Source: Patescibacteria group bacterium (lineage in GTDB: Bacteria > Patescibacteriota > Minisyncoccia > Minisyncoccales > CG1-02-41-26). Taken from it: a stretch of 11,476 nucleotides of DNA. Positions 153 through 11,476 of this stretch are shown here, one piece after another. The DNA lies in the NCBI GenBank assembly GCA_018830365.1, contig JAHJSK010000078.1:1-11476 (forward strand), read 5' to 3'. The position numbers were made by a program, and so were the translations under genes. Every line of letters starts with the position of its first letter. Position 1 is the stretch's first letter. Below the pieces are notes generated by a model. It did not search any database. It saw only the letters and a list, made by a program, of their open reading frames with translations, and had not been told where the DNA came from.

Positions 153-575
153 ATGTTTCAAGAACCAATTCAAAAAGAAAATTTATCCGACACTTCAGAT
201 TTAATAAGCTCCGAAGACATTGCTTTAATTCTTTCAGCAATTTGCGTGTCAAGCGGCATAGAACAAGAGGAGGAAATTGAAAAAGTGTCTTATCAAGTTG
301 CCCGAGTTTTATTTAACGACTTGCCGTCTGAATTGCTCGCCAAATCTTTAAATGAAAACGAAGGTTTTTCTTTGGAAATAGCTGAAACAATTGCTCAAAA
401 AGCCGACCGCTATATTTTTTCGCAAATAGAAAAATCCGTTTCAAATGAAGAATCGGCCGTGCCAGATGAAGAACCTTTTTCAGAAAAATCCGAAATCATT
501 GAAAGCCCTATGGCTGAAAATCCTTTAACCAAAAACCCTCCAAAAGATGATGTTTATCGCGAACCAATAGAATAG
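153..575 (+). CDS. Small acidic protein P1 (140 aa), paralog of P2 (2575..3066). The C-terminal tail is ...DDVYREPIE
   Basis: ATG..TAG ORF with no signal peptide or TM segment. The core VARVLFNDLPSELLAKSLNENEGFSLEIAETIAQKADRYIF aligns with P2 VGNVLMGLFPPENFLASLQVELNIEKEKSQNIFQEINRFIF. The last 30 nt (545-574) match the 3' end of P2 at 29 of 30 positions. Confidence 0.6.
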   Translation: MFQEPIQKENLSDTSDLISSEDIALILSAICVSSGIEQEEEIEKVSYQVARVLFNDLPSELLAKSLNENEGFSLEIAETIAQKADRYIFSQIEKSVSNEESAVPDEEPFSEKSEIIESPMAENPLTKNPPKDDVYREPIE

Positions 576-588
576 AAGGCATTAACAT

Positions 589-636
589 AATTTTCAATTT
601 TCAAGCACCAATTTACAATCAATTTTCAATTTTCAA
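589..636. repeat. Two copies of the 16-mer AATTTTCAATTTTCAA (589-604 and 621-636) flanking GCACCAATTTACAATC. The stretch 596-614, AATTTTCAAGCACCAATTT, recurs at 6816-6836 with one mismatch.
   Basis: Direct reading of the sequence, with positions indexed by hand. Confidence 0.6.
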
Positions 637-699
637 AATCCTAAACAAAAGTTTAAAAATTTTTGTTTACTTTCCTCTCGCTTTGCTTCGCTTGATAAT

Positions 700-740
700 A
701 AAAAAGGAGGGACACTGATGTATCCCCCCCTTGTATCCTG
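700..740 (-). terminator. Intrinsic terminator for the minus-strand SPFH gene. The same hairpin also reads as a hairpin on the + strand downstream of P1.
   Basis: The minus strand reads AAGGGGGGGAUACAUCAGUGUCCCUCCUUUUUUUAUUAUC. This gives a 9-10 bp stem with two G-U pairs followed by a U7 tract, beginning about 10 nt after the TAA stop (complement of 747-749). Confidence 0.5.
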
Positions 741-1991: not shown

Positions 1992-2159
1992 TCTAAATCA
2001 CCTCCAATATAATTGCATTGTGGGGAAGCATTGCTTCCTTCAACGCAATATTTTTAAAAATCTGGCATCTGTTTAATTTTATTCCAGACGCTTGATTACT
2101 GCCTACATTATAACAGAGCATTTTTAATTGTCAAGTTTTTAAGCGTGATTTTAATTTGT

Positions 2160-2211
2160 AAAAATCCTGTCCCTTATTCCAGCGATCGCGGTTTTAAGAG
2201 ACAGGATTTTT
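2160..2211. repeat. Hairpin/inverted-repeat element A. The arms are AAAAATCCTGTC (2160-2171) and GACAGGATTTTT (2200-2211), enclosing 28 nt that contain GCGATCGCGGTTTTA.
   Basis: Perfect 12-bp inverted repeat, verified base by base. It is homologous to element B (2285-2332). It has an A-run on the 5' side and a T-run on the 3' side, so it looks terminator-like in both directions. Confidence 0.7.
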
Positions 2212-2284
2212 GCAATAAATTAGTTTTGATAGAAATTTTATGGAGGTCTGACCTATGTAATTTTGAATCTGTATAAATTTAGAA

Positions 2285-2332
2285 AAATCCTGTCGGTTAA
2301 ACAGGCGATCGTGGTTTTAACCGACAGGATTT
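2285..2332. repeat. Hairpin/inverted-repeat element B. The arms are AAATCCTGTCGGTTAAA (2285-2301) and TTTAACCGACAGGATTT (2316-2332), with a 14-nt loop CAGGCGATCGTGGT.
   Basis: Perfect 17-bp inverted repeat. It shares AAAAATCCTGTC...GCGATCG(C/T)GGTTTTA...GACAGGATTT with element A, 124 bp upstream. Confidence 0.7.
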
Positions 2333-2497
2333 ATTTTCAAACGAAACGAGAGAAATAAAAATTCATTTTTTAAAAAATGAGCTCCGTAATATTTATGCCA
2401 TGGCATTATTATTACCTATGGTGATAAATTAAACATATTTAATAATAAACCCCGGACATTTGGAAGGGGTGTATTTTTGTTGCGCGAGTGGTTGCTG

Positions 2498-2538
2498 TTT
2501 TTGGGGTTGCTTTTCGCGTGTTCGCGTATTATTATTAG
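2498..2538 (+). promoter_or_regulatory. Promoter module R1. It has -35 TTGCTT (2507-2512), a 17-nt spacer, and -10 TATTAT (2530-2535). It also contains a small CGCG-UGUU-CGCG hairpin. It is predicted to drive P2, whose ATG is at 2575.
   Basis: The 41-bp block TTTTTGGGGTTGCTTTTCGCGTGTTCGCGTATTATTATTAG repeats at 3416-3462 with two substitutions. The sigma70-like spacing was verified by counting. Confidence 0.45.
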
Positions 2539-2574
2539 TGTTATTAGCTAATAGATTTTTAGTAAAAAGTATTT

Positions 2575-3066
2575 ATGTTGCAACAATATAATCAAAAAGA
2601 ACTCCAAGGATTGTTTGAAGTTTTACCCGAAGAATTAAAAGACGCTATTTTATCTGAACAAACCGCGGAAACAATCAGAAAAATTTGTGAACGGTATAAA
2701 ATAGAAGAAAGAAATATGTCTGAAATAGCAGGATTAGTTGGCAATGTTTTAATGGGTCTTTTCCCGCCGGAAAATTTTCTTGCATCTCTTCAAGTGGAGT
2801 TAAATATAGAAAAAGAAAAATCGCAAAATATTTTTCAAGAGATAAATCGTTTTATTTTCTTTCCTGTAAAAAATTTTCTTATAGAATTTTATCCAGAAAT
2901 TAAATTCGCTCATGGTGGCAAAGTCGCGGACGAAAGCATTGCCATAGAAGAAAAATTTGCGAAAGAAAAATTAGAAAAAATTGAATCGGAAAAAGCCGCG
3001 CCAATAGAGGAAAGCAAGGAGACAAAAAAAACAGGAGATGATGTTTATCGTGAACCAATAGAATAA
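2575..3066 (+). CDS. Small acidic protein P2 (163 aa), paralog of P1. The C-terminal tail is ...GDDVYREPIE
   Basis: ATG..TAA ORF with no signal peptide or TM segment. It has a K/E-rich C-terminal region and a core homologous to P1. The 3' 30 nt (3037-3066) are nearly identical to P1 545-574. Confidence 0.65.
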   Translation: MLQQYNQKELQGLFEVLPEELKDAILSEQTAETIRKICERYKIEERNMSEIAGLVGNVLMGLFPPENFLASLQVELNIEKEKSQNIFQEINRFIFFPVKNFLIEFYPEIKFAHGGKVADESIAIEEKFAKEKLEKIESEKAAPIEESKETKKTGDDVYREPIE

Positions 3067-3073
3067 AAAAAAG

Positions 3074-3098
3074 ATTTACAGAGGCCCGTCCTCTGTAA
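3074..3098. repeat. GC-rich palindrome family member 1: tTTACAGAGG-cccgt-CCTCTGTAAa
   Basis: 10-bp perfect inverted repeat with a 5-nt loop. It has outer TTAC/GTAA ends like members 2-5. Confidence 0.7.
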
Positions 3099-3142
3099 AA
3101 ACCTCTGCGAAAAGGTGAATTTGATAATTAAAAAAGATTTAG

Positions 3143-3167
3143 CATTACACCGTCCCGGACGGTGTAA
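3143..3167. repeat. GC-rich palindrome family member 2: aTTACACCGTCC-c-GGACGGTGTAAt (25-bp perfect palindrome). An identical copy lies at 3535-3559.
   Basis: Verified base by base. Confidence 0.75.
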
Positions 3168-3186
3168 TTTAATAATTCAGGGAATA

Positions 3187-3239
3187 AAACAATGTATCGC
3201 CGCCAGGCGGCGATACATTGCCTGGCGGCGATACATTGT
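3187..3239. repeat. Composite element made of a 31-bp perfect palindrome CAATGTATCGCCGCC-a-GGCGGCGATACATTG (3189-3219) followed by an 18-bp tandem duplicate CCTGGCGGCGATACATTG (3220-3237). The left arm can therefore pair with either of two right arms.
   Basis: 3202-3219 and 3220-3237 are direct repeats with one mismatch. 3187-3206 is exactly complementary to 3220-3239. The element is preceded by the direct-repeat motif AATTCAGGGAATAAAAC (3173-3189), which recurs at 3324-3340. Confidence 0.7.
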
Positions 3240-3280
3240 TGATTGCCTATAAACAAAGGAGTGGTTTACGGAAAATAAAA

Positions 3281-3307
3281 TTTTTACGGAGGTCAGACCT
3301 CCGTAAA
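3281..3307. repeat. GC-rich palindrome family member 3: ttTTACGGAGGTC-a-GACCTCCGTAAaa (27-bp perfect palindrome)
   Basis: Verified base by base. A degenerate relative, ATGGAGGTCTGACCTATGTAA, sits at 2241-2261. Confidence 0.7.
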
Positions 3308-3340
3308 ACTATTCCGAAATTTTGAATTCAGGGGATAAAA

Positions 3341-3363
3341 CTTACAGAGGTCCGACCTCTGTA
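3341..3363. repeat. GC-rich palindrome family member 4: TTACAGAGGTC-c-GACCTCTGTAA (23-bp perfect palindrome)
   Basis: Verified base by base. It is preceded by AATTCAGGGGATAAAAC (3324-3340). Confidence 0.7.
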
Positions 3364-3415
3364 AAAAGATTTTAATTTAATTTTAATTGAATTGAATTAT
3401 TCACAAGGAAACTCT

Positions 3416-3462
3416 TTTTTTGGGGTTGCTTTTCGCGTCCTCGCGTATTATTATTATTATTA
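3416..3462 (+). promoter_or_regulatory. Promoter module R2, the second copy of R1. It has -35 TTGCTT (3426-3431), a 17-nt spacer, and -10 TATTAT (3449-3454). It is predicted to drive a roughly 200-nt leader and the T4SS-like operon starting at 3660.
   Basis: Direct repeat of 2498-2538. Only the loop of the CGCG hairpin differs (TCCT versus TGTT). Confidence 0.4.
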
Positions 3463-3534
3463 GTTTTATTATTTTAAAATTGATTGATGCAATAGCGCAA
3501 AGGGTTTGTTAAGCATAATGTTTTAAAATTAATT

Positions 3535-3559
3535 TTTACACCGTCCCGGACGGTGTAAA
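3535..3559. repeat. GC-rich palindrome family member 5, an exact duplicate of member 2 (TTACACCGTCC-c-GGACGGTGTAA), located inside the predicted leader
   Basis: Verified base by base. Confidence 0.75.
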
Positions 3560-3609
3560 GCTATTTGAAAAAATATAGCGGAGGGTTGACCAATATAACC
3601 TGCATTCGC

Positions 3610-3646
3610 CTTGTCTCGCTAAGCGAGGCAAGCGGGGCTTTATTTG
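3610..3646 (+). terminator. Terminator-like hairpin, a possible attenuator, 14 nt upstream of the 3660 start codon. It reads CUUGUCUCGC-uaa-GCGAGGCAAG followed by CGGGGCUUUAUUUG.
   Basis: 10-bp stem with one G-U pair and a 3-nt loop, followed by a U-rich tract. Its position inside a leader rather than after a gene argues for conditional termination. Confidence 0.4.
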
Positions 3647-3659
3647 ATAGATAACCATT

Positions 3660-4070
3660 ATGGAATTTAAAGTGCCAAAATTTTTAGAAAGAGAATCAAA
3701 ATTTTTTAGCATCTTAACCTTCAAGCAATTAGCTTGCGTCGGGATTATTGGTCTTGTTTTATTTATTTTGTATTATATTGTTCCCAAGTCAACCTTTTTC
3801 TTTTTAGTCGTTTTTTTCGGAGGAGGAAGCATGGTTTTAATGATTGTCAATATTGAGGGAGTGCCTCTTTACCAATTGGCCGGACATTCTTTGAATTATT
3901 TGCTTTCTTCTAAAAAATTTATTTGGTCAAGAAAAGAAAAGCCATTTATTAAATTATTAAACAAAGAAAGAGAGGAAGCGAAAGAAAAAAAAGCAGACGC
4001 GCCTTTAAAGATTTCCCCGGAAAGCAGCTTGGGCAAATTATCGTCCCGAATTGAGCGAGGGGTGCAGTAG
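3660..4070 (+). CDS. PrgI/VirB3-like small 2-TM T4SS protein (136 aa)
   Basis: The N-terminus MEFKVPKFLERESKFFSILTFKQL resembles the VPK...F.LT.RQL opening of PrgI/VirB3-family proteins. It is followed by two TM helices (ACVGIIGLVLFILYYIV and FFFLVVFFGGGSMVLMIVNI). It lies directly upstream of a VirB4-family gene, which is the canonical virB3-virB4 arrangement. No SD. Confidence 0.55.
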   Translation: MEFKVPKFLERESKFFSILTFKQLACVGIIGLVLFILYYIVPKSTFFFLVVFFGGGSMVLMIVNIEGVPLYQLAGHSLNYLLSSKKFIWSRKEKPFIKLLNKEREEAKEKKADAPLKISPESSLGKLSSRIERGVQ

Positions 4071-4074
4071 ATAA

Positions 4075-4264
4075 CGCAAAACTCAAAGCGCAAAACGCAA
4101 AACTAAAACGAAAATGTTAAAACTAACGCAAAATATTGATTCTGTTATTTTTCGTTGAGAGCAAGTAAATTTGAGGCTGAATTTCCTAAGGGATTGGGGA
4201 AACATCAAAAAAAGATTTAAGTTTTAAAATAAACTTTGAGTTTTGCGTTTTGAGTTTTGCGTTT
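4075..4264. repeat. Imperfect inverted repeats of GCAAAAC-family simple sequence. Left arm 4075-4110, right arm 4235-4264 (tandem TTTTGAGTTTTGCG x2). They bracket a roughly 125-bp AT-rich spacer and abut the VirB4-N start codon.
   Basis: GCAAAACTCAAA (4076-4087) is exactly complementary to TTTGAGTTTTGC, which is present twice in the right arm. Confidence 0.6.
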
Positions 4265-4270
4265 AATCGT

Positions 4271-4930
4271 ATGTCTCAATCATTTTCACAACAATTTTTA
4301 GAAATAGCTGACATCAAAGAAGGCGTGCTGGTTTTAAAAAACAGAGCTATGCGGGGCGTGCTAATGGTGTCCTCAATAAATTTTGATTTAAAATCAGAAG
4401 ATGAGCAAAAAGCTGTTATTTACCAATTTCAGGGATTTTTAAATTCCTTAGATTTTTCCTGTCAAATTATTGTTCAATCAAGAAAATTAAACATCACTGG
4501 TTATTTTGACAAATTAAAAGAATTGGAAAGGGCTCAAGAAAATGAACTTTTAAAAATTCAAACCACTGAATATCGGAAATTTATTGAGGAAATGGTAGGC
4601 GGAGGAACGATTATGAGAAAAGAATTTTTACTCGTTATTCCTTTTACTCTTTTTGAAACCAAGGGAATAATTGGCGGGAGCATGAGCGCTCTTAAAGGAG
4701 TTTTGGGAAAAAAAGAAAATTTTTTCGGATTAGGAGAAGAAAATTTCCAAAGATGCCGAGACCAACTTTATCAAAGAATGGAGTTTGCGGCTATTTGTTT
4801 GCGGCGATGCGGATTAACATCCATCCCTTTGACAACGCCAGAATTAATTGAACTTTTTTGGAGCCTTCATCATCCAAAAGAAGCGGAGTATGGTTATTAT
4901 CCAGAGATATTGCCAGAAATGATCAAATGA
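4271..4930 (+). CDS. virB4: VirB4-family N-terminal domain encoded as a separate ORF (220 aa from ATG 4271; the ORF track extends it to TTG 4250 inside the repeat)
   Basis: The stretch FLEIADIKEGVLVLKNRAMRGVLMVSSINFDLKSEDEQKAVIYQFQGFLNSLDFSCQIIVQS matches the conserved N-terminal block of Gram-positive-type VirB4/TcpF/PrgJ/ConE proteins. The ORF is in the same frame as the next one and ends with TGA. 220 aa plus 595 aa gives about 820 aa, the usual VirB4 length. Confidence 0.55.
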   Translation: MSQSFSQQFLEIADIKEGVLVLKNRAMRGVLMVSSINFDLKSEDEQKAVIYQFQGFLNSLDFSCQIIVQSRKLNITGYFDKLKELERAQENELLKIQTTEYRKFIEEMVGGGTIMRKEFLLVIPFTLFETKGIIGGSMSALKGVLGKKENFFGLGEENFQRCRDQLYQRMEFAAICLRRCGLTSIPLTTPELIELFWSLHHPKEAEYGYYPEILPEMIK

Positions 4931-4966
4931 AAATTTTAAATTTCAAATTTTAAATTTCAAATTTTT
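4931..4966. repeat. 36-bp tandem repeat (AAATTTTAAATTTCAA x2 plus ATTTTT) separating the two VirB4 ORFs. It contains an in-frame TAA at 4937-4939.
   Basis: Direct reading. It belongs to the same AATTTTCAA-type simple-sequence family as 589-636. Confidence 0.7.
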
Positions 4967-6754
4967 ATGTTTTCTTTTTTAAAGAAAAAAAATACTATTG
5001 AAGAATTGAAAATTGAACCAGAAGAATTTTTTGTTCAGGACCTTATTGCGCCACCTTCAATAGAAATATCAGGGAACCGTTTAAAATTGGGAGAAAGATT
5101 TTCCAAGACCTTTTTTGTTTTTTCTTATCCGCGATATCTTTCCACTGGCTGGATGTCTCCAGTAATCAATCTCAATTATCCTCTGGATATTTCTTTTCAT
5201 ATTCATCCCATAGACACCAATGAAATTTTAAAAAAACTGCGAAAAAAATTAACAGAAGTGCAAGCAGAATTAATGGAAAGAGAAGAAAAGGGACTGATCC
5301 GCGACCCGACCTTAGAAACAGCGTACAATGACATTGAAACACTAAGGGACTCTCTTCAGACAGTTCAAGAAAGAGTTTTTCAATTAGGAATTTATGTAAC
5401 TATTTACGCGGACAATGAAAAAGAACTAAGCGAGGTTGAAACTAAATTAAGGTCCATATTTGAGCCCCGGCTAATTTATGTTAAGCCCGCGCTATTAAGA
5501 GAAAAAGAGGGTTTTACTTCCACCGCGCCATATGGATTAGACGAAATTATGGTTCACACTCCAATGAACACGGAACCCTTGTCCAGCATTTTTCCTTTTA
5601 TCTCTCCTGATCTAAGCGCAAATGAAGGAATTTTGTATGGTTTGAATAAGCACAACAATTCTTTGGTTCTTTTTGATCGCTTTACTTTGGAAACAGGAAA
5701 TATGTGCGTTTTTGGCAAGTCCGGCTCTGGCAAAAGCTTTTTCTGCAAGTTGGAGACCTTAAGATATTTAATGCAAGGAGTGGATTGCATTGTTATTGAC
5801 CCGGAAAACGAATATGAATGGCTCGCTAACGCGGTTGGCGGGTCTTTTTTCAAAATTTCCTTAACTTCTCCTCATCATTTAAATCCTTTTGATTTGCCTG
5901 CGCCAAAAGAAGATGAAAAAGCGGAAGATGTTTTAAGGGCTAATGTGATAAACTTGGTGGGACTTTTTAGAATAATGTTAAGCAATTTGACTCCGCAGGA
6001 AGACGCTATCATAGACAGGGCTATTGCTGAAACATATTATGCCCGAGACATTACCGCCGATTCGGACCCAGCCACATGGAAAGACAAAACACCTTTAATG
6101 TCGGACTTTCAGACAATTTTGGAAGGAATGGAAGGAGCCGAGTCCTTGGTGGAGCGCGTAAGAAAATTTACCACTGGAAGCTATGGCCAATTTTTTAACA
6201 ACCCCTCTAATGTTTCTGTGGACAAAAACCTTGTTGCATTTGGGATTAGAGATATGGAAGAAGAATTAAGGCCAATGGCAATGTTTCTCATTTTAAGATA
6301 TATTTGGAATAATGTAAAAGCAGAATTAAAAAAAAGAATTTTGTTAGTGGACGAGGCATGGTGGTTGATGCGGACAGAAGATGGCGCTTCTTTTCTTTTC
6401 GGCATTTGCAAGAGGTCTAGAAAATATTGGTTAGGCGTTTCCACTATTACGCAGGACATTAGCGATTTTATGAAATCAACTTATGGCCAGCCAATTATTA
6501 CCAACTCGTCATTGTTGCTTTTGATGAAGCAATCGCCAGCTGCCATTGATTACGCGCAAAAAACATTTAATTTAACTGAGCAGGAAAAATTTCTTTTATT
6601 GGAATCCGATGTGGGGGAGGGGATTTTCCTTGCGGGCAAAAAAAGAGTGGCTTTGAAAGTAATCGGTTCTTACGCGGAAGAGCAAATTATTACCAGCGCT
6701 CCGGAACAAGTGGAAAAAATAAAACAAGCTAAGAAGAGATTGAATAACATTTGA
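4967..6754 (+). CDS. virB4: VirB4/TraC/TrbE-family T4SS ATPase, middle and C-terminal domains (595 aa)
   Basis: Walker A is VFGKSGSGKSFF. Walker B is the VirB4-typical ILLVDEAWWL (DEAW). The family-typical downstream block is RSRKYWLGVSTITQDISDF. The middle-domain pattern is FFVFSYPRYLSTGWMSPVINLNYPLDISFHIHPID. Confidence 0.85.
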   Translation: MFSFLKKKNTIEELKIEPEEFFVQDLIAPPSIEISGNRLKLGERFSKTFFVFSYPRYLSTGWMSPVINLNYPLDISFHIHPIDTNEILKKLRKKLTEVQAELMEREEKGLIRDPTLETAYNDIETLRDSLQTVQERVFQLGIYVTIYADNEKELSEVETKLRSIFEPRLIYVKPALLREKEGFTSTAPYGLDEIMVHTPMNTEPLSSIFPFISPDLSANEGILYGLNKHNNSLVLFDRFTLETGNMCVFGKSGSGKSFFCKLETLRYLMQGVDCIVIDPENEYEWLANAVGGSFFKISLTSPHHLNPFDLPAPKEDEKAEDVLRANVINLVGLFRIMLSNLTPQEDAIIDRAIAETYYARDITADSDPATWKDKTPLMSDFQTILEGMEGAESLVERVRKFTTGSYGQFFNNPSNVSVDKNLVAFGIRDMEEELRPMAMFLILRYIWNNVKAELKKRILLVDEAWWLMRTEDGASFLFGICKRSRKYWLGVSTITQDISDFMKSTYGQPIITNSSLLLLMKQSPAAIDYAQKTFNLTEQEKFLLLESDVGEGIFLAGKKRVALKVIGSYAEEQIITSAPEQVEKIKQAKKRLNNI

Positions 6755-6806
6755 CAATTGACAATTGACATTTGACAATTGACAATTGACATTTGACATT
6801 TGACAA
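6751..6806. repeat. Heptanucleotide microsatellite (TTGACAW)x8, with units TTGACAA or TTGACAT. It overlaps the VirB4 stop codon (TGA inside the first unit) and lies about 100 bp upstream of the pilin-like gene.
   Basis: Eight perfect 7-bp units counted by index from 6751 to 6806, then TTAG. Each unit carries the sigma70 -35 consensus hexamer. Confidence 0.85.
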
Positions 6807-6836
6807 TTAGCAAATAATTTTCAAGCTCCAATTTTT

Positions 6837-6908: not shown

Positions 6909-8066
6909 ATGAATCAATTTTCAAACAACACTAAAAAAATATTAATCGGTTTTTTATTGGTCGGATTTGTTTTTTCGTCATCGTTGGTTTTGGCTGCGCA
7001 AGCCCAGCAAACGCGGACTTCTGTTTTTGAAATAAATTATCCGACAATACCCGGCGCGTACACGCCTCAACAAATTTCATCGCGGCCAGAATCAGAGCGC
7101 TTGCCTCTTTACATTAATTATTTTCTCCGTTTGTTTTTTATTCTTGCTATTGGAATTGCCGCGGCAATGGTTCTTTTTGGCGGGGTTCTTTATTTGGCTT
7201 CTCGAGGAATGGACAAGCCAGCGCTTTTGATTTTGGCAAATGCCCGCATACAACAAGGGCTCTTGGGCCTTTTAATCATTGTGTCCGCGTATTTGGTTTT
7301 GGCTGTTATTAATCCTCAATTATTGGTCTTTAAGACAATGATACCGACCGCGCCCGGAGACATTACTGTTGGCGAACCTGCTTTTAACAACAAAGTTCCT
7401 TTTGTAAAAGCGCCCATTGGCTGTTTAATGGATAATTTTTTAAAATCCCTTATGTCAACAACAACTGCGTCAACAACTTGCAATGGAAACAATTATACTC
7501 AACCAAATGTCTACAAAATTGAACTTCCTCTTTGGGAGGCATTAAAACTTTTAGATTGCGCGCAAACATTGTCAGAAGAGATTGTGGTTTTATTGGAAGA
7601 TTGCAAGTGCGGGAAGTCAATATATCATGTAGCAAGACCATTTGGCTCTGACAAAACAACTTGCGTGGGGGGAGTAGACGCGTTAGCTCGAATAGGGAAA
7701 TGCGATGAAAATTGTAAAAATTGCGGAGAAGGGGAAAAGGTTTGGGGAGGTACCATATATATATGTCCCACTTCAACCTTAGCAATAAAGAGAGATGAAC
7801 TCGCGGGTATTATGAGCAAATTAAAAGGAAGCGAGTTTAAAACAAATTTTGAGCAAATAGAGTTGATTAGAAAAACATTGGGAACGAACTCTGCTGAGTA
7901 TTTAACCCGGGAATTGCAAGGATATAGTTTTCAAGAGGATTTTAATGAGCAGGCAAAAAAATTAAAAGAACAGGGATACGATGTTGCGGAGACAATAACT
8001 TCGCAATATCCTGAAAAATGCAAAATTGACCCTTTTACTTTTTATGCGCCGATCAAGGGAGAATAG
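6909..8066 (+). CDS. Secreted membrane protein (385 aa) with a signal peptide, a VirB2/TrbC pilin-like pair of hydrophobic helices, and a Cys-rich C-terminal domain
   Basis: The signal peptide is MNQFSNNTKKILIGFLLVGFVFSSSLVLAAQA|QQ. The two hydrophobic helices FLRLFFILAIGIAAAMVLFGGVLYLAS and GLLGLLIIVSAYLVLAVINP are separated by a short loop. The C-terminal domain has more than 10 Cys (CKCGKS..CVGG..CDENCKNCGEGE..ICPTS). No SD. Confidence 0.6.
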   Translation: MNQFSNNTKKILIGFLLVGFVFSSSLVLAAQAQQTRTSVFEINYPTIPGAYTPQQISSRPESERLPLYINYFLRLFFILAIGIAAAMVLFGGVLYLASRGMDKPALLILANARIQQGLLGLLIIVSAYLVLAVINPQLLVFKTMIPTAPGDITVGEPAFNNKVPFVKAPIGCLMDNFLKSLMSTTTASTTCNGNNYTQPNVYKIELPLWEALKLLDCAQTLSEEIVVLLEDCKCGKSIYHVARPFGSDKTTCVGGVDALARIGKCDENCKNCGEGEKVWGGTIYICPTSTLAIKRDELAGIMSKLKGSEFKTNFEQIELIRKTLGTNSAEYLTRELQGYSFQEDFNEQAKKLKEQGYDVAETITSQYPEKCKIDPFTFYAPIKGE

Positions 8067-8144
8067 TTTGTAGCTTATTAGCTTGTAGCTTATTAGGGAA
8101 TTTCCTAAGAAGCTAAAAAGCTAAAAAGCTAAGAAGCTAAAAAC
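8067..8144. repeat. Spacer built from TAGCTTATTAG x2 (8071-8081 and 8086-8096), a GGAATTTCC centre, then the octamer (AAGCTAAA)x4 (8110-8141) ending 3 nt before the ATG of the giant gene. The two halves are imperfect inverted repeats of each other.
   Basis: Direct reading. CTAAGAAGCTA (8105-8115 and 8128-8138) is the revcomp of TAGCTTATTAG with one mismatch. Confidence 0.7.
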
Positions 8145-11100
8145 ATGTTTCACAATTCCCACATAAAAAAAATAATAATCAGTGGCTTATTGCTTGGATT
8201 GATTTTTCAATCCAGCATCTCTTTTGCCGTGGCAACAAATCCTTTGCCAAATCCTTATCCAGAAGAACTGCTTAAACACAACACAAATGTGCTTTACGAA
8301 AACGAAAGATTTAGTTTGTTTTTGGTTTTGAGCCGTTTGTCATTGGAAGAGCTTCAAGAAATGCTGAAAGAATGTTTGGCTATGGCTTTTCGTACCGAAG
8401 GAGAATTTAAAATGAGCACAACAACACTTAGCGCAACTATTGACCAATCCTTTAAAGATGGATTGTCTAATTTTTTAGCTGAGTATTTGAGTCCGGGCAG
8501 TGATGATTATGCCGAAGCGTTTTATAAAAAATTAAAAGATGAAATAAATGAAAAATATGAAACATGCACAAGCACAGAAGCGGAAAGACCGGATTGCATT
8601 CAAAAATGCGTGAACCAAGAAGGAATTTCCGAAACAGAGTGCGCGAGAAAATGCAGGAAAACAAGCAAAGCAATTTCCGACCTTTTGGCTGATTTTTTAA
8701 CTGGGGATTTAAGATCTAAACTTCCAAGTGAAATTCAAAAAATTCTTAATGAGCGATTAAGAGATGTTATTTTTTCAGATAAAGTGAACGCTATTTTAAG
8801 CACAAGCACTTTGGCTGTTTTAAACAAGGCGCTCGGCGAAGCTTTGAATAAAACTATTGTTGATGAAGTTCCTGCTTTAAAAGAAACCTTGGGCAGAAAA
8901 GTAACAAGTTATATGGCGCCTTCGCTTGTAAAGCCGCTGGAAAAAATAGATCGACTTTTATCATTTAAAATAGAGGATTTAAAAACATATATAGACAATA
9001 AAATAGCGAGCACTACCGCGACAATGGCCGCTAAATTAAAAGAAGCGGTGACAAAGACCAAAAATACCGCAAACGCGGGGACAAATCTTGATAGAACAGG
9101 GTGTTGTAACATTGCTTATTTTAGGGGCGAACATTGGTATTGGAGCTTCACAGAAAGAAAATGCAAGTACGCAGACAGAGCTTATATAAACGATCACTGG
9201 AGTACAATTTTATTAGGGATTAGAGATTGCGGCACCAAGGATACCAATATAATACCCGGGGAAACTATGTCCCCGCCTCAAAATCAGATAGATTTTTGCG
9301 AGATGTCATCGGATTCCTGCTGGCAGAATAGCGTGTGCGCGCAATGCGACAAAGCGGAAACATGGAAAGAAGTATTTAATATTGGGCAATGGTGGAGCTC
9401 GTTCACTAAAAATTTATTCACTGCTTTGCTCGCTATGCCTCAGCAAATAATGCTCGCTATGATTGATGTTGCGGCTCACACTTTAACAGAGTACGCCCAG
9501 GTCTGGGTGGAAGACGAACTCATTGCTCCGCTCCAGCCCTATTTTAATAAATTCGCGGAGTTTCAGAAAAAACTCCATAAAGCGCTGAATTACACGGTTG
9601 CGGATCTTTTGCCTAAACAAGCAAAAGTTTTATTGACAAGCAACGCTGACCAGATATTGGACATGATATGCAAGGGCGCACAAAAAGGCGGGATAGATAT
9701 AGGATCAGAAGAAGAAGAAATCAAAAAAAATAGAGAGGCGGCTTGTAATACTTACAAAGAACTTCACCAAGACCTCTTAAGCCAATTAGCAGACACCGGG
9801 CATTTGGGCAAGGAAATCAAGGACGCTTTAAACAGCACGGTTTTTAAATTACTTCCGTCAAATTTGCAACAACTTCTCGCAAGCTCTACCGCTGAGCTTC
9901 TCTGGCCTGAAATAACTAATATTAAAAAATTAATTTTAGGAACGCCAAAGCAAATTATTTGCGGCGAGCTTTTTAATAAAAATTTTGAAGTAAAAATTGA
10001 CGACACTAATTCATCGGTTTTTGAAAAATGCACTACAGCGGGACCAATAGGATTAAGAACAACGCAAGGCACGATTGGACTCCTTCCTTACATAGACAAA
10101 ACCAGTACTTTTTGGACAGGACTAAACAGCGGACTCAAAGAAAAATACGCTATTTCCTGCCCCATTATTTGGTATGTGTGTCAAAACCCTCTTTCCCCAT
10201 GGGGCGCAAAGGTTGGAGATGTGCTCGTTAATATTATAAGTAGTCAATGCGCGAGCATAGATAAAAAAACAAGCAACAAATGCGGCTGGAACAATTATAG
10301 CGCGCCTGCAAACGCAAATTTGCCTGACGAGTTTAAGCCCGGGTGCGCGGCTTGTAAAACTTTAAATTCTTCTCTGGCATTTAGTTTGTTTAAATATGGA
10401 ATGGAGCAAAAATATGGCACCAGCACTGCGGCTGTATCTCCAACTAACCCAAGACTAAATGAGCGCGCGGCTTATCAATGGCTTTATGTGGCTTTTCCGC
10501 TTTTAAGAGACAGCGCCAACATTTCAAATTTTAATGGCGGGACAAAGCAAGTGGCAGTAGTGGCAAGAGGATTTAAAGAAGCAGAGTGGGATGATAATGT
10601 CCCAAATAGCACAAGCAGTATTGTCCAAGAAATAAAATATTATTCTGGCACTAGTGAACTTCCTCCATCAGCCACTGCGTTGGCGCAAACTTTTATAACT
10701 TGGATGACCAATGAAGCGTCTGGCAAAGAAATTCTTACTTCCATTCCATTGGGCGTGATCAAGCCATTTAATCCCGGGGAGGCAACATTGCTAAGAGACG
10801 CTGGCAAAGGTTCTAAAAATGAAGAGTTCCTTGCTTACACGCCTTATGAGTTTTTGGAACAAGAATTGTGCCGCAAAGTAATCGCGGATTTTAAAAAAGA
10901 TTATTCCACTTCTACCATAGAAGCGATTATGGCAACTGAAGCAAATAAATTAGCCCAAATAAGCGGGATTCCTTATTCAGTTGAAAGCTTGCGACATACA
11001 ACTATGGCGCAAGCGGAACAAATTCTTTTGAGCAATGACGAAATTGACGCTGAACGCAAAGCCAGTTATCTTACTTGTTTTGCGTTGGACAAAAAACCAG

Positions 11101-11476
11101 CCGCGCTATTTGGTTTGGACCAAAAACTGATTGAATATGTAAGGCCTGAACCGTACAAAGTTCTTTTTACTTTAATCAAAGAAAAATTAAAAGAGGACGA
11201 AAGACCAACCCTTTTAAATAAACTTTTAATTTATCTTTATAGATGGAACCCTGTTGACCTTGCTTGCGCGATATTGACGAAAAAATCATATGACGCAGAC
11301 GAGCGAGCTGTTATTGATAATGCTTCAAGCACTCCAGCTGAGATAGCCGCTGCGCAAAAAAGAATAGAAAGCAAAAAAACAATGACTGATTTTGCCTGCA
11401 ATTTCTTGGGCACTACTATGGGAGATCGGATAAAAAAATATTTGCCAAAAAAGGAGATGATTTGTCTTATCGCGGA
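8145..11476 (+). CDS. Giant secreted Cys-rich protein, more than 1110 aa. The 5' end is complete and the 3' end runs past the window edge.
   Basis: Frame 3 is open from ATG 8145 to the window end. It was checked codon by codon at 9051-9120 and 10200-10260, where other frames have TAG/TAA. The signal peptide is MFHNSHIKKIIISGLLLGLIFQSSISFA|VA. There are many Cys clusters (CIQKCVNQ..ECARKCRK, GCCNIAYF, CEMSSDSCWQNSVCAQCD, CAACKTL). It is mostly hydrophilic. All listed minus-strand ORFs in this span are antisense artefacts. Confidence 0.65.
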   Translation, partial: MFHNSHIKKIIISGLLLGLIFQSSISFAVATNPLPNPYPEELLKHNTNVLYENERFSLFLVLSRLSLEELQEMLKECLAMAFRTEGEFKMSTTTLSATIDQSFKDGLSNFLAEYLSPGSDDYAEAFYKKLKDEINEKYETCTSTEAERPDCIQKCVNQEGISETECARKCRKTSKAISDLLADFLTGDLRSKLPSEIQKILNERLRDVIFSDKVNAILSTSTLAVLNKALGEALNKTIVDEVPALKETLGRKVTSYMAPSLVKPLEKIDRLLSFKIEDLKTYIDNKIASTTATMAAKLKEAVTKTKNTANAGTNLDRTGCCNIAYFRGEHWYWSFTERKCKYADRAYINDHWSTILLGIRDCGTKDTNIIPGETMSPPQNQIDFCEMSSDSCWQNSVCAQCDKAETWKEVFNIGQWWSSFTKNLFTALLAMPQQIMLAMIDVAAHTLTEYAQVWVEDELIAPLQPYFNKFAEFQKKLHKALNYTVADLLPKQAKVLLTSNADQILDMICKGAQKGGIDIGSEEEEIKKNREAACNTYKELHQDLLSQLADTGHLGKEIKDALNSTVFKLLPSNLQQLLASSTAELLWPEITNIKKLILGTPKQIICGELFNKNFEVKIDDTNSSVFEKCTTAGPIGLRTTQGTIGLLPYIDKTSTFWTGLNSGLKEKYAISCPIIWYVCQNPLSPWGAKVGDVLVNIISSQCASIDKKTSNKCGWNNYSAPANANLPDEFKPGCAACKTLNSSLAFSLFKYGMEQKYGTSTAAVSPTNPRLNERAAYQWLYVAFPLLRDSANISNFNGGTKQVAVVARGFKEAEWDDNVPNSTSSIVQEIKYYSGTSELPPSATALAQTFITWMTNEASGKEILTSIPLGVIKPFNPGEATLLRDAGKGSKNEEFLAYTPYEFLEQELCRKVIADFKKDYSTSTIEAIMATEANKLAQISGIPYSVESLRHTTMAQAEQILLSNDEIDAERKASYLTCFALDKKPAALFGLDQKLIEYVRPEPYKVLFTLIKEKLKEDERPTLLNKLLIYLYRWNPVDLACAILTKKSYDADERAVIDNASSTPAEIAAAQKRIESKKTMTDFACNFLGTTMGDRIKKYLPKKEMICLIA

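What the first reader, a model, noticed from the sequence alone, without database searches (positions are those of the whole stretch)
4250..6754. VirB4 is encoded as two same-frame ORFs interrupted by a 36-bp simple-sequence repeat carrying two stop codons
The N-terminal VirB4 domain ORF ends with TGA at 4928-4930. It is followed by AAA TTT TAA in the same frame, and the ATPase body restarts at ATG 4967 in that same frame. The 36-bp spacer is a tandem duplication, AAATTTTAAATTTCAA x2, of the same simple-sequence family that fills other spacers here. There are two possible readings. One is a recent repeat insertion that disrupted a roughly 820-aa VirB4, leaving a possible pseudogene or a protein restored by a length variant. 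The other is a stable two-subunit VirB4. A TGA=Gly recoding as in genetic code 25 cannot rescue it, because TAA follows three codons later. Other genes here stop with TAG or TAA, consistent with the standard code.
Basis: seen in the sequence. Interest (0 to 1): 0.6.

Follow-up and report, generated by a model that had tools for sequence, protein, structure and literature searches.

The report
Naturally two-gene VirB4 (trsD-virB4)
The apparently interrupted VirB4 secretion ATPase is not broken: it is the normal, already described two-gene form (a TrsD-like N-terminal module plus the ATPase) found across Patescibacteria, and the 36-base repeat only sits in the old gap between the two genes.

Summary
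The sequence is as described, with small corrections. ORF-N runs from ATG 4271 to TGA 4928-4930. A 36-nt spacer with an in-frame TAA follows. ORF-C runs from ATG 4967 to 6754 in the same frame. The repeat unit is 14 nt (AAATTTTAAATTTC x2.5), not 16, and ORF-C also stops with TGA.

The pseudogene reading is wrong. In all 80 related Patescibacteria loci that held both genes, the two genes are separate and adjacent. ORF-N ends at the same conserved residue (...YPEILPELIK*). Gaps run from a 4-nt ATGA overlap to 1.7 kb, in all three frames. Both ORFs are under strong purifying selection (dN/dS 0.10 and 0.06).

A 2025 paper already reports TrsD next to VirB4 as widespread in Patescibacteria. An 89%-identical relative has a 5-nt spacer, so the repeat is a recent expansion inside an old intergenic gap. 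Similar short arrays fill the neighbouring spacers, and one of them varies in copy number between assemblies.

The parts
3660..4070 (+). PrgI family (VirB3-like) membrane protein gene, 136 aa, first gene of the conserved VirB3 / TrsD-like / VirB4 trio.
   Evidence: Pfam PrgI E 4.6e-7, 30.7 bits, above the 27-bit cut-off. It matches positions 17-115 of the Mycoplasma VirB3-VirB4 fusion profile NF045975. A PrgI gene sits upstream of the trsD-like or fused virB4 gene in relatives.
4271..4930 (+). ORF-N: trsD-like gene, 219 aa plus TGA stop. It encodes the detached N-terminal module of VirB4 (Pfam PF26593 'TraC-like').
4931..4966 (+). Intergenic spacer of 36 nt: AAATTTTAAATTTC x2.5 plus T (7/14-nt period), with an in-frame TAA at 4937-4939. 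It is a recent simple-sequence expansion of a short AT-rich spacer.
   Evidence: TRF gives period 14, 2.5 copies, 100% match. The spacer is identical in L001 and L002. The 89%-identical relative L086 has only AAATT here. The RNA has no special structure (dG -9.7, z -0.3). No terminator and no +-strand promoter match lies in it; the only promoter-like matches there are two weak ones on the - strand.
4967..6754 (+). ORF-C: virB4 ATPase gene, 595 aa plus TGA stop. It holds the second half of the VirB4 N-terminal region and the P-loop ATPase domain.
   Evidence: Pfam P-loop_TraG E 4.6e-24, plus AAA_10 and DUF87. NCBIfam CD1110 VirB4-like family scores 369 bits, above the 325-bit cut-off, covering positions 173-734 of 752. 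PDB 4ag5 VirB4 C-terminal domain E 5e-41, and TrwK residues 444-734. It aligns to PrgJ 227-772, to TrsE from residue 36, and to fused P0322 residues 230-788 at 54% identity. dN/dS is 0.06.
5714..5737 (+). Walker A motif GKSGSGKS of the VirB4 ATPase.
   Evidence: Motif scan of the translation.
6338..6355 (+). Walker B motif ILLVDE of the VirB4 ATPase.
   Evidence: Motif scan of the translation.
4073..4264 (.). Context, same repeat family: two inverted heptamer arrays (AACGCAA-type at 4073-4114, TTTGAGT/TTTGCGT at 4235-4264) around a core of about 120-130 nt without an ORF, lying between PrgI and ORF-N.
   Evidence: TRF. Arms of 29 nt are 93% complementary. The RNA fold of 4065-4272 gives dG -58.6 kcal/mol, z -6.2, and 0 of 200 shuffles fold as well. 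The relative L086 has only 23 nt at this site.
6747..6808 (.). Context, same repeat family: ACAATTG/ACATTTG heptamer array (about 9 copies) overlapping the ORF-C stop. It is copy-number polymorphic.
   Evidence: TRF score 96-117. The only indels between the window and the 99.6%-identical assembly L001 are +7 and +21 nt inside this array.

Best explanation
This is the normal gene arrangement of the Patescibacteria type IV secretion system: prgI (VirB3-like), a trsD-like gene, then virB4. The VirB4 ATPase is made as two polypeptides. ORF-N is the TrsD-like N-terminal module and ORF-C is the rest of the N-terminal region plus the ATPase domain. The split lies at a variable, probably flexible linker.

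Shown here:
- The two genes are separate, adjacent and split at the same point in all 80 related loci that held both.
- Both are under purifying selection.
- Together they are colinear with single-chain VirB4 proteins.
- The 36-nt repeat is a recent simple-sequence expansion of a spacer that is 5 nt in a close relative.

Inferred:
- The genes are co-transcribed. They are on the same strand with no terminator between them.
- ORF-N terminates at TGA 4928-4930, and ribosomes start again at ATG 4967 on an unstructured AU-rich leader. Like most other genes in the window, it has no Shine-Dalgarno sequence.
- The two proteins assemble non-covalently. By analogy with the N-terminal domain of TrwK/VirB4 in the R388 structure, the TrsD-like module would link the ATPase hexamer to the PrgI/VirB3-like membrane protein.

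The repeat has no demonstrated function.
For: Conserved split:
- More than 7,800 ORF-N homologues were found, the top 120 all 184-247 aa.
- The top 120 ORF-C homologues are all 531-638 aa.
- The stop falls at or within two residues of the same position in 27 aligned homologues.
- In 80 loci the genes are adjacent and separate. Gaps run from -4 to 1675 nt, all three frames occur, and all three stop codons are used.

Both genes functional:
- dN/dS is 0.10 and 0.06 against L086.
- Walker A and Walker B are intact.

ORF-N is the VirB4 N-terminal module:
- PrgI, ORF-N and ORF-C hit NF045975 at positions 17-115, 111-212 and 272-893.
- ORF-N and ORF-C hit CD1110 at 11-104 and 173-734.
- Fused homologues: P0322 (797 aa) aligns to ORF-N 6-206 and ORF-C 23-582. 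P0386 (898 aa) is seen in 5 contigs from at least 3 samples.

Same arrangement in known plasmids: pSK41 has trsC (135 aa), trsD (227 aa) and trsE (672 aa) with a 14-nt gap, and ORF-C residue 25 aligns with TrsE residue 36.

Literature: PMC12102498 reports 2,272 TrsD homologues in Patescibacteria, 1,664 of them next to virB4. It describes TrsD as remotely homologous to the VirB4 N-terminus and lists it as essential in Ca. Southlakia epibionticum.

Recent repeat: L086 has a 5-nt spacer.
Against: - Nothing here shows the two polypeptides or their physical interaction. Assembly and the adaptor role of ORF-N are inferred.
- ORF-N's match to the TrsD family profile is weak: 22 bits against a 200-bit cut-off, and hhalign against a single TrsD sequence gives E 0.004 at low probability.
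- The ORF-N model is of only moderate confidence (pLDDT 68).
- ATG 4967 has no Shine-Dalgarno sequence, and the 36-nt spacer is longer than in most relatives, so translation efficiency of ORF-C in this strain is unknown.
Confidence: 0.9

Rival explanations
1. Recent disruption: a repeat insertion broke a single VirB4 gene of about 820 aa, leaving a pseudogene or a gene restored only in length variants.
For: The two ORFs share a frame and are separated only by a 36-nt perfect tandem repeat. The repeat is recent, since L086 lacks it. Rare fused homologues exist.
Against: All 80 related loci holding both genes are split at the same point, including the 89%-identical relative, which has its own TGA stop, a 5-nt gap and its own ATG. 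The stop position and the downstream start peptide are conserved. dN/dS is 0.06-0.10. The spacer is identical in three assemblies, with no restoring allele seen. Deleting the repeat would still leave TGA 4928.
Confidence: 0.02
2. Programmed recoding: stop-codon readthrough or frameshifting across the spacer yields a fused VirB4 alongside the two separate products.
For: The ORFs share a frame in this window. TGA is the leakiest stop codon (general knowledge).
Against: Two stops (TGA, then TAA) would both have to be read through. Relatives place the genes in all three frames, with overlaps and with inserts of up to 1.7 kb, so no recoding signal is conserved. The spacer RNA has no stimulatory structure.
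Confidence: 0.02
3. The spacer repeat is a functional tuning element. Changes in heptamer copy number alter the distance between the ORF-N stop and the ORF-C start, and so alter translational coupling and the TrsD-to-VirB4 ratio, as in a contingency locus. This would add to the two-gene arrangement rather than replace it.
For: Heptamer arrays occupy nearly every spacer of this operon. One array (6747-6808) differs by 28 nt between 99.6%-identical assemblies. Spacer length varies widely among relatives. Period-7/14/21 arrays are enriched in 610 kb of related DNA: 60 arrays, against 0 of period 7, 6 of period 14 and 1 of period 21 in shuffles.
Against: The 36-nt spacer itself shows no length variation in three assemblies. 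No expression data exist. Such arrays may simply be neutral slippage products in AT-rich intergenic DNA.
Confidence: 0.07
4. Assembly or sequencing artefact: the simple repeat and its stops were created by misassembly of low-complexity reads.
For: Low-complexity AT-rich repeats are prone to error (general knowledge).
Against: The 36 nt are identical in three assemblies from different data sets. The split is independent of the repeat in any case.
Confidence: 0.01

Closest known systems
Patescibacteria T4SS gene set (VirB4, TrsD, PrgI/VirB3, VirB6, VirB2-like) described in Microb Genom 2025, PMC12102498
   Same: The window has the same components in the same neighbourhood: PrgI, a TrsD-like gene and virB4 side by side. 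The paper reports TrsD as the most abundant T4SS component, usually next to virB4, remotely homologous to the VirB4 N-terminus, and essential in Ca. Southlakia epibionticum. The window is one more instance.
   Different: The paper does not discuss spacer repeats. Its text, searched by keyword here, has no occurrence of 'split' or 'two genes', so it does not appear to describe the pair as a split VirB4. Rare fused TrsD-VirB4 forms were found here.
trsC-trsD-trsE of staphylococcal conjugative plasmids pSK41/pGO1. The traC-traD-traE genes of pIP501 are thought to be equivalent, from my own knowledge and not checked here.
   Same: The three-gene order and sizes match: 135, 227 and 672 aa against 136, 219 and 595 aa, with a short 14-nt gap. 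ORF-C and TrsE start at the same point of the VirB4 fold, ORF-C residue 25 aligning with TrsE residue 36. ORF-N hits the TrsD/TraD family profile and aligns colinearly with TrsD.
   Different: Sequence similarity of ORF-N to TrsD is very low: 22 bits, about 20% identity. The plasmid system is a conjugation machine with a relaxase and a coupling protein. According to the literature, the Patescibacteria system is chromosomal and needed for epibiotic growth.
Single-chain monoderm VirB4 proteins: PrgJ of pCF10-type plasmids and the CD1110 family
   Same: ORF-C scores above the CD1110 family cut-off and aligns with PrgJ 227-772. A PrgI gene lies upstream in both.
   Different: PrgJ is one 796-aa chain. 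Here its first 200 or so residues are supplied by a separate gene.
TrwK/VirB4 of plasmid R388 (cryo-EM structures 7o41-7o43 and 8rtb/8rtd)
   Different: TrwK is a diderm, single-chain protein of 823 aa, about 10% identical to ORF-N over the aligned residues.
Mycoplasma ICE VirB3-VirB4 fusion ATPase (NCBIfam NF045975, Mbov_0397 family)
   Same: PrgI, ORF-N and ORF-C map in order onto positions 17-115, 111-212 and 272-893 of this one 894-position profile.
   Different: It is the opposite extreme, with all three modules fused in one chain. The hits lie far below the family cut-off, so this is homology and not membership.
Intergenic heptamer tandem repeats in other bacteria: TAACTGA repeats of Beggiatoaceae (PMC4679880) and, from my own knowledge, STRR repeats of heterocystous cyanobacteria
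   Same: Both are short arrays with a 7-nt period confined to intergenic DNA.
   Different: The unit sequence here differs from spacer to spacer. Arrays often come as inverted pairs around a core or around a 23S_rRNA_IVP gene. No common motif like TAACTGA is present.

Membership tests
VirB4-family T4SS ATPase (ORF-C) | Match to curated VirB4 family models at or above their cut-off | tested here: met
   NCBIfam NF045971 (CD1110 VirB4-like) scores 369 bits against a 325-bit cut-off. Pfam P-loop_TraG scores 85 bits against 25.8.
VirB4-family T4SS ATPase (ORF-C) | Intact Walker A and Walker B nucleotide-binding motifs | tested here: met
   GKSGSGKS at residues 250-257 and ILLVDE at residues 458-463.
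VirB4-family T4SS ATPase (ORF-C) | Similarity to a solved VirB4 ATPase domain | tested here: met
   4ag5 (Thermoanaerobacter VirB4 C-terminal domain) E 4.9e-41. TrwK E 1e-4.
VirB4-family T4SS ATPase (ORF-C) | ATP hydrolysis and a requirement for it in secretion | not testable with these tools
   This needs biochemistry or genetics. Essentiality of the Patescibacteria T4SS genes is reported only for Ca. S. epibionticum, as cited in PMC12102498.
TrsD/TraD family, Pfam PF26593 'TraC-like' (ORF-N) | Protein of about 200-230 aa encoded immediately upstream of virB4 and downstream of a VirB3-like gene | tested here: met
   The window has 136-, 219- and 595-aa genes in that order. The order is the same in pSK41 and in the CPR relatives examined.
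TrsD/TraD family, Pfam PF26593 'TraC-like' (ORF-N) | Sequence match to the family model | tested here: inconclusive
   NCBIfam NF041427 gives E 9.4e-5 but only 22 bits against a 200-bit cut-off. The local Pfam copy gives no hit. PF26593 is precomputed on the identical protein and on all 120 listed homologues. hhalign against pSK41 TrsD gives E 0.004, colinear.
TrsD/TraD family, Pfam PF26593 'TraC-like' (ORF-N) | Homology to the N-terminal part of VirB4 | tested here: met
Disrupted gene / pseudogene | Close relatives carry an uninterrupted ORF at the same place | tested here: not met
   None of 80 related loci is uninterrupted, including the relative at 89% identity. The only fused forms found are distant, at 39% and 54% identity.
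Disrupted gene / pseudogene | Relaxed selection (dN/dS near 1, frameshifts, internal stops) | tested here: not met
   dN/dS is 0.10 for ORF-N and 0.06 for ORF-C. Neither ORF has an internal stop or a frameshift.
Alternative genetic code (code 25, TGA = Gly) | TGA occurs inside conserved coding sequence and is not used as a stop | tested here: not met
   TGA ends both ORF-N and ORF-C at the conserved protein ends. The equivalent stop in homologues is TAA 56, TGA 19 and TAG 5 times.

The most novel reading that the evidence does not exclude
The 36-nt spacer could be one member of an uncharacterised family of self-expanding short tandem arrays, mostly of 7-nt period, that colonise intergenic spacers of Paceibacteria-type genomes.

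- The arrays vary in copy number between near-identical strains.
- They often occur as inverted pairs forming long stems around a 23S_rRNA_IVP (four-helix-bundle) gene or around a core without an ORF.
- They recur at the PrgI|trsD and trsD|virB4 junctions of the T4SS operon.

If functional, they could act as IVS-like RNA-processing cassettes (RNase III substrates), or as simple-sequence rheostats that set the relative translation of T4SS subunits.
Probability: 0.1. Interest if true: 0.5.

Novelty: already known. Interest (0 to 1): 0.15.

Why it matters
For annotation, this pair should not be flagged as a disrupted virB4 or a pseudogene. ORF-N should be named a TrsD-like VirB4 N-terminal module. 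The result also gives a cleaner statement than the literature I found: TrsD plus VirB4 of Patescibacteria, and of pSK41-type plasmids, equals one VirB4 cut at a flexible linker, with rare natural fusions as proof. That could guide structural modelling of this secretion system, which is reported to be essential. Beyond that the finding is ordinary. The only open thread is the family of polymorphic heptamer arrays and IVP cassettes in the spacers.

Tried and rejected
- The local Pfam copy gave no hit for ORF-N, even at E of 10 or less. The family PF26593 is only in the precomputed annotations.
- A profile of ORF-N homologues against PDB sequences gave only chance hits, to Speedy protein at E 0.015. 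Fold comparison was needed instead.
- hhalign of the ORF-N profile against the single PrgJ sequence failed, giving E 0.1 on an off-register segment. Against pSK41 TrsD it was weak but colinear.
- Rfam found nothing in the window.
- The promoter and terminator scan found no +-strand promoter match and no terminator in the spacer. Folding found no structure there.
- Guglielmini et al. 2014 (PMC4027160), cited for the homology between TrsD and the VirB4 N-terminus, does not mention TrsD in its main text. That citation therefore rests on PMC12102498.
- Literature searches for heptamer arrays in the Candidate Phyla Radiation, or for IVP genes flanked by tandem arrays, found nothing specific.
- Rejected explanations: pseudogene, recoding, code 25 and assembly artefact. 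Reasons are given under the rival explanations.
Full report
**Observation.**
- An ORF opens at TTG 4250 and ends at TGA 4928-4930. Its probable start is ATG 4271, where all homologues begin.
- The next 36 nt contain a second in-frame stop, TAA at 4937-4939.
- ATG 4967 opens a 595-aa ORF in the same frame, ending at 6754.
- Tandem Repeats Finder gives the spacer as AAATTTTAAATTTC x2.5, with a 14-nt or 7-nt period and 100% match. It is not a 16-mer duplicated.
- The spacer is identical in the window, in an ENA assembly (L001, 99.6% identical overall) and in an independent Logan assembly (L002). It is therefore not an assembly artefact.

**What the two ORFs are.**
- ORF-C is a VirB4-type ATPase. 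It hits Pfam P-loop_TraG, AAA_10 and DUF87. It scores 369 bits against NCBIfam CD1110 VirB4-like, above the 325-bit cut-off. It matches the solved VirB4 C-terminal domain 4ag5 at E 5e-41 and TrwK residues 444-734. Walker A (GKSGSGKS) and Walker B (ILLVDE) are intact.
- ORF-N has no hit in the local Pfam copy. The identical protein and all listed homologues carry the precomputed family PF26593 'TraC-like'.
- In NCBIfam, ORF-N hits VirB4_plasma positions 111-212, the TrsD/TraD family (E 9e-5) and CD1110 positions 11-104.
- ORF-C hits the same two VirB4 models at positions 272-893 and 173-734. The upstream PrgI gene (3660-4070) hits VirB4_plasma at 17-115.
- Three consecutive genes therefore map in order, with almost no overlap, onto one VirB3-VirB4 fusion profile.

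**Is the split a recent accident?** No.
- ORF-N has more than 7,800 homologues, and the best 120 are all 184-247 aa. The best 120 ORF-C homologues are all 531-638 aa.
- In an alignment of 27 ORF-N homologues at 66-89% identity, all end at or within two residues of the same position...GYYPEILPELIK*.
- A scan of one genome per GTDB species returned 80 Patescibacteria loci. Adding the closest metagenomic relative, 80 loci held both genes.
- In all 80 loci the genes are separate and adjacent.
  - Nine overlap (ATGA or TAATG type).
  - Thirty have gaps of 0-10 nt, 26 of 11-50 nt, and 10 of 51-130 nt. Five have larger gaps with inserted DNA.
  - The gap is in frame 0, 1 or 2 in 19, 26 and 35 loci.
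  - The ORF-N stop is TAA, TGA or TAG in 56, 19 and 5 loci.
  - The downstream protein starts with a conserved M-x-x-P-F-[FL]-K-K.
- The shared frame in the window is thus a coincidence, and the standard genetic code applies.
- Against the closest relative (L086, 89% aa identity), dN/dS is 0.10 for ORF-N and 0.06 for ORF-C. Both genes are under strong purifying selection.

**Is it really one VirB4 in two pieces?** Yes.
- A profile search of 1.84 billion representative proteins found 2,650 relatives of ORF-N. Most of the best 150 are standalone proteins of 200-260 aa, and some carry long disordered tails. Two are long: P0322 (797 aa) and P0386 (898 aa).
- P0322 aligns with ORF-N residues 6-206 at its positions 8-213 (39% identity). 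It aligns with ORF-C residues 23-582 at its positions 230-788 (54% identity). The two parts are joined by about 16 residues. It lies downstream of a PrgI gene, near dnaA.
- P0386 joins the two parts through a proline/alanine-rich linker of roughly 110 aa. It is seen in five contigs from at least three samples, again after PrgI.
- The break therefore sits at a variable linker.
- Single-chain PrgJ (796 aa) aligns with ORF-C from its residue 227.

**Comparison with what is known.**
- pSK41 carries trsC (VirB3-like, 135 aa), trsD (227 aa) and trsE (DUF87 ATPase, 672 aa) with a 14-nt gap. ORF-C residue 25 aligns with TrsE residue 36, so the cut is at the same place. The ORF-N profile aligns colinearly, though weakly, with TrsD.
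[quoted passage not shown] It calls TrsD the most abundant T4SS component in Patescibacteria, with 2,272 homologues, 1,664 of them associated with virB4. The paper states that the TrsD homologue of Ca. Southlakia epibionticum is listed as essential.
- The arrangement in the window is therefore already described. The window adds one more member.

**The spacer.**
- The 89%-identical relative has TGA-AAATT-ATG at this junction and only 23 nt between PrgI and ORF-N, against 36 nt and 200 nt in the window.
- The repeat is thus a recent expansion, but inside a gap that already separated two genes.
- It has no notable RNA structure (z -0.3). It holds no terminator and no +-strand promoter match; the only promoter-like matches there are two weak ones on the - strand.
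- Most genes in the window, including ORF-N, lack a Shine-Dalgarno sequence. Its absence before ATG 4967 therefore means little.

**Mechanism, shown and inferred.**
- Shown: two conserved, selected, adjacent genes that together equal one VirB4.
- Inferred: co-transcription, termination at TGA 4928 with re-initiation at ATG 4967, non-covalent assembly of the two products, and an adaptor role for the TrsD-like module between the PrgI/VirB3-like membrane protein and the ATPase. The adaptor role is by analogy with the N-terminal domain of TrwK in the R388 structures.

**Side observations.**
- Short tandem arrays, mostly of 7-nt period, occupy nearly every intergenic spacer of the window.
- Two of the arrays are inverted copies. 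With the core between them they form a long stem of 25 or more base pairs (fold of 4065-4272: dG -58.6, z -6.2).
- The only indels between the window and L001 are +7 and +21 nt within the 6747-6808 array.
- In 610 kb of related loci, arrays of period 7, 14 or 21 number 60. Shuffles gave 0 of period 7, 6 of period 14 and 1 of period 21.
- In three species a 23S_rRNA_IVP gene flanked by inverted arrays lies between trsD-like and virB4.
- All 13 IVP-like genes in the fetched loci have flanking inverted repeats above the 95th percentile of random controls. Six or seven of them lie just upstream of the trsD-like gene, in about the position of the window's hairpin element.
- I found no literature on this.

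**Verdict.** The 'disruption or pseudogene' reading is refuted and the 'stable two-subunit VirB4' reading is supported. The arrangement is already known, so interest is low.

Noticed in passing
window 589-636, 4073-4114, 4235-4264, 4931-4965, 6747-6808, 8064-8096, 8105-8143: Nearly every intergenic spacer carries a short tandem array, mostly of 7-nt period (one has a 15-nt and one an 8-nt unit), and each has a different unit: AATTTTC, AACGCAA, TTTGAGT, AAATTTT, ACAATTG, TAGCTTG, CTAAAAAG. In 610 kb of related Patescibacteria loci, arrays of period 7, 14 or 21 number 60; shuffles gave 0 of period 7, 6 of period 14 and 1 of period 21.
   Followed up: partly
window 6747-6808 (L001 10866-10955): The ACAATTG/ACATTTG array reads as TTGACAA repeated and so contains the -35-like TTGACA nine times. 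It is the only site of indels between the window and a 99.6%-identical assembly (+7 and +21 nt in L001). The arrays are therefore copy-number polymorphic within a population.
   Followed up: partly
window 4073-4264: Two heptamer arrays in inverted orientation (29-nt arms, 93% complementary) flank a core of about 120-130 nt without an ORF, between PrgI and the trsD-like gene. As RNA it folds into a long stem of 25 or more base pairs (dG -58.6 kcal/mol, z -6.2). The 89%-identical relative has only 23 nt at this site.
   Followed up: partly
L069 4674-5036, L070 4702-5085, L073 2961-3353, L001 16864-17265 (just past the window end): Genes for 121-133-aa 23S_rRNA_IVP (PF05635, four-helix-bundle) proteins are flanked by inverted short tandem arrays. 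They are inserted between trsD-like and virB4 (three species) or, in six or seven loci, just upstream of the trsD-like gene. All 13 such genes in the fetched loci have flanking inverted repeats above the 95th percentile of random controls. They look like IVS-like cassettes outside rRNA. No literature was found.
   Followed up: partly
window 2150-3600: This long non-coding stretch is packed with GC-rich hairpins of one style (TTAC[A/G]...GTAA) at 3075-3098, 3140-3167, 3188-3240, 3277-3313, 3342-3365 and 3536-3563. It also has two related 50-nt palindromic elements at 2162-2211 and 2283-2332. In L003 most of 3066-3636 is replaced by a short stretch that resembles window 570-700.
   Followed up: no
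window 153-575 and 2575-3066: Two small ORFs (140 and 163 aa, no family hit) end with the same peptide, DDVYREPIE*. They look like paralogues flanking the oppositely oriented Band_7/SPFH gene (747-1991), the only gene in the window with a clear GGAGG ribosome-binding site.
   Followed up: no
L034 4664-6338: In one species, 1.7 kb carrying two ORFs (356 aa, with an NPPF motif that suggests a DNA methyltransferase, and 193 aa) is inserted between trsD-like and virB4. This may be a restriction-modification-like insertion. The junction evidently tolerates large inserts.
   Followed up: no
P0274 (L092 622-1920), P0320: Some TrsD-like proteins carry C-terminal tails of 200 or more aa that are low-complexity and rich in Pro, Ala, Gln and Thr, while remaining separate from virB4. 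The fused form P0386 has a similar linker of roughly 110 aa. The region at the split point is highly variable in length.
   Followed up: partly
window 6909-8066 and 8173-11476 (runs off the end): Downstream of virB4 lie a 385-aa ORF and a very large ORF (1,497 aa in L001). Neither has a Pfam or NCBIfam hit. The same order, a 370-470-aa gene then a 1,400-1,500-aa gene, follows virB4 in L086 and follows the fused form in L089. They are probably further T4SS components, such as VirB6-like or surface proteins, but were not characterised.
   Followed up: no
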